DNA of 63,964 bases, filler included, from Lama guanicoe (Eukaryota), in assembly GCA_013239625.1 (NCBI GenBank). It is 79 parts of 77 records of this genome, joined end to end, with 100 filler letters (N's around TTAATTAATTAA, not from the genome) between each part and the next. Parts side by side here need not be neighbours in the genome. Positions count along the whole stretch, not along the records: positions 12,628 to 13,109 come from MU055261.1; 78 more parts are not named here. One strand, given 5' to 3'. The position numbers and the translations under genes are program-made. Within the stretch, counting starts at the first letter, position 1, and each line of letters opens with the position of its first letter. Shown piece by piece: positions 12,628 to 13,109 of the stretch. The notes below the pieces were generated by a model. The model saw only the letters and a list, made by a program, of their open reading frames with translations. It had not been told where the DNA came from and made no database searches.

Positions 12628-13109
12628 TGATTCTTGCCTTCATCATTGTCTTCCACATCGTGTCCACGGCACTCCTGTTCATTTCTACCATTGACAATGC
12701 CTGGTGGGTAGGCGACAGCTTCTCTGCTGACCTCTGGAGAGTGTGCACCAACAGCACAAACTGTACCGAGATCAATGAGCTGACCGGCCCTGAAGCNNNN
12801 NNNNNNNNNNNNNNNNNNNNNNNNNNNNNNNNNNNNNNNNNNNNNNNNNNNNNNNNNNNNNNNNNNNNNNNNNTCTGCTCCAGCTCTTCCGCCTCAAGCA
12901 GGGAGAGAGGTTCGTCCTGACCTCCATCATCCAGCTCATGTCCTGTCTGTGTGTCATGATCGGAGCTTCCATCTATACAGACCGGCGCCAAGACCTTCAC
13001 CAACAGAACAGAAAACTCTATTACCTACTGCAAGAAGGCAGCTACGGCTACTCTTTCATCCTGGCCTGGGTGGCCTTTGCCTTCACTTTCATCAGCGGCC
13101 TCATGTACC
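12628..13109 (+). CDS. Emp2: Epithelial membrane protein 2, intronless near-complete CDS (PMP22/EMP family), rodent-like
   Basis: 12628-12796 translates to [56 protein letters not shown]. After a 77-N gap, 12874-13109 gives [78 protein letters not shown]. No stops or introns in the sequenced parts. Confidence 0.93.

What the first reader, a model, noticed from the sequence alone, without database searches (positions are those of the whole stretch)
12628..13109. Intronless, rodent-type Emp2 CDS in an apparently camelid assembly
Seen: the whole scaffold is Emp2 coding sequence, with no flanking genomic DNA, no stops, and uninterrupted reading across ...IDN/AWW... and ...LMS/CL.... Established: PMP22/EMP genes split their CDS over four exons, with junctions near those positions. 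From memory, the peptides NELTGPE and [23 protein letters not shown] match mouse Emp2, which has a longer first loop than human EMP2. The 77-N gap is close to the ~84 nt of coding sequence expected there. Inference: mouse cDNA or ORF-clone contamination rather than a host retrogene. It could produce a false gene model or a false horizontal-transfer claim.
Basis: partly seen in the sequence, partly recalled or inferred. Interest (0 to 1): 0.7.

Follow-up and report, generated by a model that had tools for sequence, protein, structure and literature searches.

The report
Mouse Emp2 cDNA lab contaminant
This tiny unplaced scaffold is a spliced piece of the house-mouse Emp2 coding sequence in an assembly that appears to be from a non-rodent mammal, so it is most likely stray laboratory DNA (likely a cloned or PCR-made fragment) and not part of the animal's genome.

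Summary
Observation confirmed. Scaffold 12628-13109 is two contigs (c.8-176 and c.261-495 of the Emp2 CDS) around a 77-N gap; the true gap is 84 nt. The peptides are 133/133 identical to Mus musculus Emp2 and 100/133 to Camelus and Vicugna EMP2. The DNA is 403/404 identical to a spliced mRNA contig encoding exactly the mouse protein. It reads across an intron position, so it is cDNA-derived. It has no UTR, poly(A), vector or host flank. A random 488-nt piece of that mRNA would lie wholly inside the CDS only 1.1% of the time. Engineered mouse Emp2 pieces (a pBluescript-type clone, FLAG-tagged forms) also appear in public assemblies labelled as five bacterial species. One odd construct carries the same ISGLMY block at which this scaffold ends. 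Best reading: contamination by a recombinant or PCR-made mouse Emp2 fragment. Carry-over from a mouse RNA library is the main rival. Retrocopy or horizontal transfer is about 1%. The host looks non-rodent and cetartiodactyl-like, but 'camelid' was not proven. This is an artefact, useful only as a contamination flag.

The parts
12628..12796 (+). Left contig: mouse Emp2 CDS c.8-176 (residues 4-58 complete: TM1 and first extracellular loop)
   Evidence: 169/169 nt to mRNA contig L002; 55/55 aa to NP_031955.2; coordinates; PF00822
12698..12699 (+). IDN/AWW position (c.78/79), read without interruption; an intron position in EMP genes
   Evidence: The sequence is continuous. That an intron lies here is recalled, not tested.
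12797..12873 (.). Scaffold gap of 77 N standing for c.177-260 (84 nt); hides c.218, where several constructs carry a T>C (M73T) change
   Evidence: construct change in L001, P0122, P0126, P0129
12874..13108 (+). Right contig: mouse Emp2 CDS c.261-495 (residues 88-165), ending at the Tyr of ISGLMY, 24 nt short of the CDS end
   Evidence: 234/235 nt to L002; 78/78 aa
12922..12922 (+). Silent G>C at c.309 (Thr103), not shared with L001 or L002
   Evidence: the best-holding runs carry 0.91 of the sampled words and none carries all
12944..12945 (+). Spliced junction into the last coding exon (S/CL, c.331/332), crossed without an intron
   Evidence: 5 ORFs of other mammals (P0264, P0266, P0269, P0270, P0278) lose EMP2 likeness just upstream of this point, as expected for intron read-through
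13109..13109 (+). Single non-mouse terminal base (C; the mouse mRNA has A): primer or vector base, host-type Leu codon, or end error; unresolved
   Evidence: camelid proteins have Leu and mouse has Met at the next residue
12528..12627 (.). Artificial spacer between scaffolds (left); not biological flank
   Evidence: the same spacer separates all 79 scaffolds
13110..13209 (.). Artificial spacer between scaffolds (right); not biological flank

Best explanation
The scaffold is a spliced house-mouse Emp2 coding fragment that likely entered the sequencing library as a small amount of recombinant DNA (a plasmid insert or a roughly 0.5-kb PCR product spanning about c.1-495) and was assembled as an orphan scaffold. 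Shown: mouse identity, crossing of an intron position, CDS-only span, no host flank, and engineered mouse Emp2 fragments in unrelated public assemblies. Inferred: low-depth reads built two short contigs, read pairs bridged them with a mis-sized gap, and the ends mark a primer-defined fragment with a few bases eroded or vector trimmed. It has no function in the host.
For: 133/133 aa to Mus musculus; 129 to M. spicilegus, 127 to M. caroli, 122 to rat, 100 to Camelus and Vicugna. 403/404 nt to L002, whose CDS encodes exactly NP_031955.2. Span c.8-495 of a 519-nt CDS in a 3370-nt mRNA, with a 1.1% chance for a random piece. Of 12 named members in the mouse/rat cluster (45 members, 40 read), 4 carry bacterial labels covering 5 species. 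L001 is mouse Emp2 c.64-439 behind a BamHI site inside a T7/T3 pBluescript-type polylinker on a Pusillimonas contig. P0001 and P0131 end in a FLAG tag. P0122 begins MLVILA-ISGLMY, joining the CDS start to the block at which this scaffold ends. The host L1 fragment's named hits among the best 120 are pig (4) and porpoise (1), with none named as rodent.
Against: No vector sequence lies in this scaffold, and none of the window matches L001's vector arms or the plasmid collection. No construct with exactly these ends or the c.309 variant was found. The construct series is rare in the DNA collections scanned: 1 locus among 185,579 GTDB genomes; the only metagenome hit is a full mRNA with UTRs; none in plasmids, phages, E. 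coli or viral contigs. All 21 runs holding half or more of the words are RNA or guessed RNA. The shared construct change c.218 falls in the gap. Read depth, library and mate data were not obtained.
Confidence: 0.77

Rival explanations
1. Still contamination, but from a mouse RNA-seq or cDNA library sharing a lane or bench (index hopping or carry-over), with only the CDS part assembled by chance.
For: Spliced and mouse-identical. No vector bases are attached. The public runs that hold the sequence are RNA or guessed RNA, and a full mouse-type Emp2 mRNA occurs in a metagenome assembly.
Against: The CDS is 15% of the mRNA, and a 488-nt piece lies wholly inside it with probability 1.1%. Carry-over should yield many more abundant mouse transcripts (inference). 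I noticed no other cDNA-like scaffold while reading the window, but this was not tested against a mouse transcript set. The right end coincides with a block seen in an engineered form.
Confidence: 0.2
2. The assembly is of a mouse, or is heavily mixed with mouse genomic DNA, and the scaffold is a recent mouse Emp2 retrocopy.
For: Intronless and mouse-identical, with one private silent change.
Against: The L1 fragment's best named hits are cetartiodactyl, none rodent. The long-period satellites in the window have periods of 265 and 248 bp, not the mouse 234 and 120 bp (recalled). No UTR, poly(A) or flank is present.
Confidence: 0.02
3. A true insertion in the host genome: either a retrocopy of the host's own EMP2 or a very recent horizontal transfer of mouse Emp2 mRNA.
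For: The sequence is intronless, as a retrocopy would be. Flanks are unknown, so integration is not directly excluded. The terminal C fits a non-rodent Leu codon.
Against: All 33 covered positions at which the aligned camelid protein differs follow mouse (133 versus 100 of 133), which excludes a host retrocopy. A transfer would have to postdate the M. musculus / M. spicilegus split (4 differences in 133 aa) and leave no flank, while laboratory copies of this cDNA demonstrably circulate.
Confidence: 0.01

Closest known systems
Mus musculus epithelial membrane protein 2 (Emp2; NP_031955.2 / O88662), PMP-22/EMP/MP20/claudin family PF00822
   Same: 133/133 covered residues; 403/404 nt to an mRNA contig encoding this protein; above the Pfam cut-off
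   Different: Only c.8-176 and c.261-495 are present: no start, stop, UTR, promoter or intron. One silent change and one foreign end base.
Engineered mouse Emp2 fragments in public bacterial and metagenome assemblies (L001 = NZ_JACJUU010000046.1; P0001, P0122, P0126, P0128, P0129, P0131)
   Same: Same cDNA, CDS-centred, found in organisms that cannot own it; P0122 shares the ISGLMY end block
   Different: Those records show polylinker, BamHI tail or FLAG tag, and this scaffold shows none. L001 spans c.64-439, not c.8-495, and has G at c.309.
Camelid EMP2 orthologue (Camelus dromedarius/bactrianus P0077, C. ferus P0082, Vicugna pacos P0081)
   Same: Same gene family and orthology group
   Different: 100/133 identity; the 167-aa form has a first loop 5 residues shorter and different second-loop residues.
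Processed pseudogene (L1-made retrocopy)
   Same: Introns absent
   Different: Not derived from the host gene; no decay, poly(A), target-site duplication or flank seen.

Membership tests
PMP-22/EMP/MP20/claudin (PF00822) | Score above the Pfam gathering cut-off | tested here: met
   53.3 and 97.4 bits against 26.7
Mus musculus Emp2 cDNA | Near-complete protein identity to M. musculus, above sister species and far above camelids | tested here: met
   133/133 against 129, 127, 122 and 100
Mus musculus Emp2 cDNA | Near-complete nucleotide identity including silent sites | tested here: met
   403/404 to L002, an unlabelled mRNA contig encoding exactly NP_031955.2. RefSeq NM DNA itself was not available.
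Mus musculus Emp2 cDNA | Crosses intron positions without introns | tested here: met
   S/CL junction supported by 5 read-through ORFs; the IDN/AWW junction is recalled only
Foreign-species assembly contaminant | Small unplaced scaffold with no join to host DNA | tested here: met
   482-nt scaffold, entirely Emp2, between artificial spacers
Foreign-species assembly contaminant | Host is a different, distant species | tested here: inconclusive
   Non-rodent, cetartiodactyl-like from L1 hits; tRNA-like short repeat; camelid identity not proven
Foreign-species assembly contaminant | Aberrant read depth, restricted to one library, absent in other individuals | not testable with these tools
   No read-level data were obtained for the source assembly
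Recombinant construct or amplicon | Vector, tag or primer-tail sequence joined to the insert | tested here: not met
   Only one foreign terminal base; no match to L001 vector arms or to the plasmid collection
Recombinant construct or amplicon | Ends confined to the ORF or to primer-defined positions | tested here: met
   c.8-495, chance 1.1%; the right end equals the ISGLMY block of P0122
Recombinant construct or amplicon | Carries a clone-specific change shared with known constructs | tested here: inconclusive
   c.218 T>C lies in the N gap; c.309 G>C is not in L001
Host retrocopy (processed pseudogene) | Derived from the host's own gene | tested here: not met
   100/133 to camelid EMP2, at most 101/133 to the other non-rodent proteins tabulated
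Host retrocopy (processed pseudogene) | Poly(A) tail, target-site duplications, host flanks | tested here: inconclusive
   The scaffold ends inside the CDS on both sides, so none can be seen

The most novel reading that the evidence does not exclude
The scaffold is one band of an undocumented, widely used reagent (a DNA size marker or sample-tracking spike-in) built from a series of mouse Emp2 clones. The same reagent has seeded mouse Emp2 'hypothetical proteins' into GenBank and RefSeq records of Parabacteroides, Pusillimonas, Kosakonia and Acinetobacter and into a mammalian assembly, so it could serve as a tracer of library-preparation contamination and belongs in vector screens.
Probability: 0.35. 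Interest if true: 0.3.

Novelty: not a real feature. Interest (0 to 1): 0.13.

Why it matters
It is not biology of the host. It matters for database hygiene: left in, the scaffold can produce a second, rodent-like EMP2 model or a false horizontal-transfer call. The same cDNA has already produced bacterial-labelled EMP2 proteins, and the UniRef100 entry for mouse Emp2 now has the taxon 'cellular organisms'. I found no report of mouse Emp2 as a recurring contaminant in the held library, which lacks most subscription papers and patents.

Tried and rejected
The window's own genome is not held, so copy number, vector scaffolds and other mouse scaffolds elsewhere in the assembly could not be searched.

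Read-level laying gave no data, so loose ends and depth remain open.

No Emp2 match was found in plasmids, phages, E. coli genomes or viral contigs. Whole-window megablast against plasmids found nothing.

A search for a short construct continuing past ISGLMY with vector-coded residues found none among 34 proteins of 35-114 aa (10 of them read).

Gap length as evidence for mouse was rejected: 77 is 7 from 84 and 8 from 69.

Proof of a camelid host was not obtained. PMC13751797 (passages only, supplements not seen) treats 1.8-8.5 kb non-centromeric satellites and gave no 265- or 248-bp monomer. PMC3531059 (passages; supplement unavailable) only names vic-1 as a simple camel SINE. PMC8605555 (passages) reports MIRs as nearly all camelid SINEs.

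Support for the size-marker idea was not found in print: two protocols read as passages (PMC8593656, PMC11697689) do not mention ladder DNA entering libraries. The second vector contig in the L001 genome is an unrelated pET-type clone, which points to general cross-sample carry-over there and not to an Emp2 ladder series. The BamHI-tailed primer of L001 was not found in the library; I recall such a primer being used to clone the mouse EMP2 loop, unverified.

The idea that P0126's 'MIRG' start is an Illumina adapter was rejected: L001 shows polylinker there.

Earlier scan notes held nothing relevant.

Full report
Setting. The window is not contiguous DNA. It is 79 scaffolds of 421-1240 nt joined by an artificial N44-spacer-N44 linker, and 27 of them have internal gaps. 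Most of what I read is satellite, L1 and other repeat debris typical of the unplaced tail of a short-read mammalian assembly. The finding is one whole scaffold, 12628-13109: a 169-nt contig, 77 N, and a 236-nt contig.

Observation. Both contigs are open in one frame on the + strand and pass the Pfam PF00822 cut-off. A protein search with the right contig returned 217 proteins among 239 candidates, and the named ones among the best 120 listed were EMP2 or unannotated equivalents. Against named members the 133 covered residues match Mus musculus 133, M. spicilegus 129, M. caroli 127, M. pahari 125, rat 122, Camelus and Vicugna 100, pig 101 and gibbon 98. A scan of metagenome contigs gave one hit, L002, a 3370-nt contig with UTRs whose CDS encodes exactly NP_031955.2. 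The scaffold matches it 169/169 and 234/235, at c.8-176 and c.261-495, so the true gap is 84 nt. The differences are a silent G>C at 12922 and a last base C at 13109 where the mRNA has A. The gap size does not help: a camelid-length loop would give 69 nt, and 77 lies between.

It is cDNA. Five short ORFs of other mammals, among the 11 proteins fetched, resemble EMP2 only downstream of the S/CL position and carry unrelated residues upstream, as expected when a reading frame runs in from an intron. The scaffold crosses that position (12944/12945) without a break. The earlier junction at IDN/AWW rests on recall.

Host. No whole genome is held. An L1 ORF2 fragment from another scaffold gave, among its best 120 hits, five named ones: four pig and one porpoise, none rodent. 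A tRNA-like short repeat lies at 49523-49595. Its likeness to the camel SINE vic-1 is recalled; PMC3531059 (passages) only confirms that vic-1 is a simple SINE of camels. The host is therefore likely a cetartiodactyl and camelid is plausible, but unproven. The conclusion needs only that it is not a mouse.

Route of entry. The CDS is 15% of the mRNA, and a random 488-nt piece lies wholly within it with probability 1.1%. Mouse Emp2 constructs demonstrably contaminate other assemblies. In the mouse/rat cluster (45 members, 40 read, 12 named), 4 named members carry bacterial labels: Parabacteroides distasonis and Pusillimonas minor, P. johnsonii, Kosakonia cowanii, and Acinetobacter baumannii. The one GTDB locus found is mouse Emp2 c.64-439 behind a BamHI site in a T7/T3 polylinker of pBluescript type (the vector name is recalled from the site order). 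P0001 and P0131 end in a FLAG tag. P0122 opens with MLVILA joined directly to ISGLMY, and ISGLMY is where this scaffold ends, which suggests a primer-defined end at c.495 (inference). I therefore think a plasmid insert or an amplicon of about 0.5 kb entered the library at low level, formed two contigs and was bridged by read pairs.

Results against that route. No vector is attached, and none of the window matches L001's arms or the plasmid collection. No construct with the same ends or the c.309 variant was found. The clone-specific c.218 change falls in the gap. The series is rare in the DNA collections scanned. Of 24 runs listed, 21 hold half or more of the words, in 10 studies; all are RNA or guessed RNA and none holds every word. 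Carry-over from a mouse RNA library therefore keeps about 0.2. The genome that holds L001 also holds an unrelated pET-type clone, so general cross-sample carry-over explains that record as well as a dedicated reagent would.

Retrocopy or transfer. A host retrocopy is excluded by the residue pattern. A horizontal transfer would need to be younger than the split from M. spicilegus, lack any flank, and involve a cDNA known to circulate as laboratory DNA; I give it about 0.01.

Literature. Ten searches were run. None described mouse Emp2 as a contaminant, marker or spike-in (listings only; host searches). Five papers were read as passages only. Their supplements were unavailable or not seen, and those of the satellite and SINE papers could bear on the host identity. 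Earlier scan notes gave nothing relevant.

Verdict. Interest is low. The only new element is that this cDNA appears to be a recurring, apparently unreported contaminant.

Noticed in passing
P0126, P0128, P0129, P0131: GenBank/RefSeq 'hypothetical proteins' of Parabacteroides, Pusillimonas, Kosakonia and Acinetobacter are mouse Emp2 construct fragments. P0129 lies on a 261,909-bp contig, so there it seems assembled into bacterial sequence.
   Followed up: partly
L005:561-1454 (G001 contig C19, 6222 bp): A second laboratory plasmid in the same bacterial assembly: T7/lac expression vector with a 297-aa His-tagged insert (looks MetF-like by recall; not tested).
   Followed up: partly
window 1-1240, 17841-18712, 57276-58206; 32004-32602, 61681-62658: Two satellite families, periods about 265 bp (reported for 1-562, the others recognised by eye) and 248 bp; not matched to any published monomer.
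   Followed up: partly
window 3909-4390, 18813-19737, 21850-22676, 45010-45562, 52219-53639, 55503-57175: An abundant AT-rich satellite built on a 7-bp unit with a 63-bp higher-order period, in many scaffolds.
   Followed up: no
window 49523-49595 +: tRNA-like short repeat followed by an A run, just above the Rfam tRNA cut-off (29.7 against 29 bits); likely a simple SINE, resembling camel vic-1 by recall.
   Followed up: partly
window 1341-2109 +: An 18-bp tandem repeat read as Pro/Ala/Glu-rich frames; the first ends in a hydrophobic stretch and a stop. Could be a repeat-rich coding exon or only a minisatellite.
   Followed up: no
window 40994-41331: A perfect 165-bp tandem duplication (100% matches), probably an assembly artefact.
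   Followed up: no
window 16771-17740, 25102-26057: Scaffolds made almost wholly of GGA-rich repeats.
   Followed up: no
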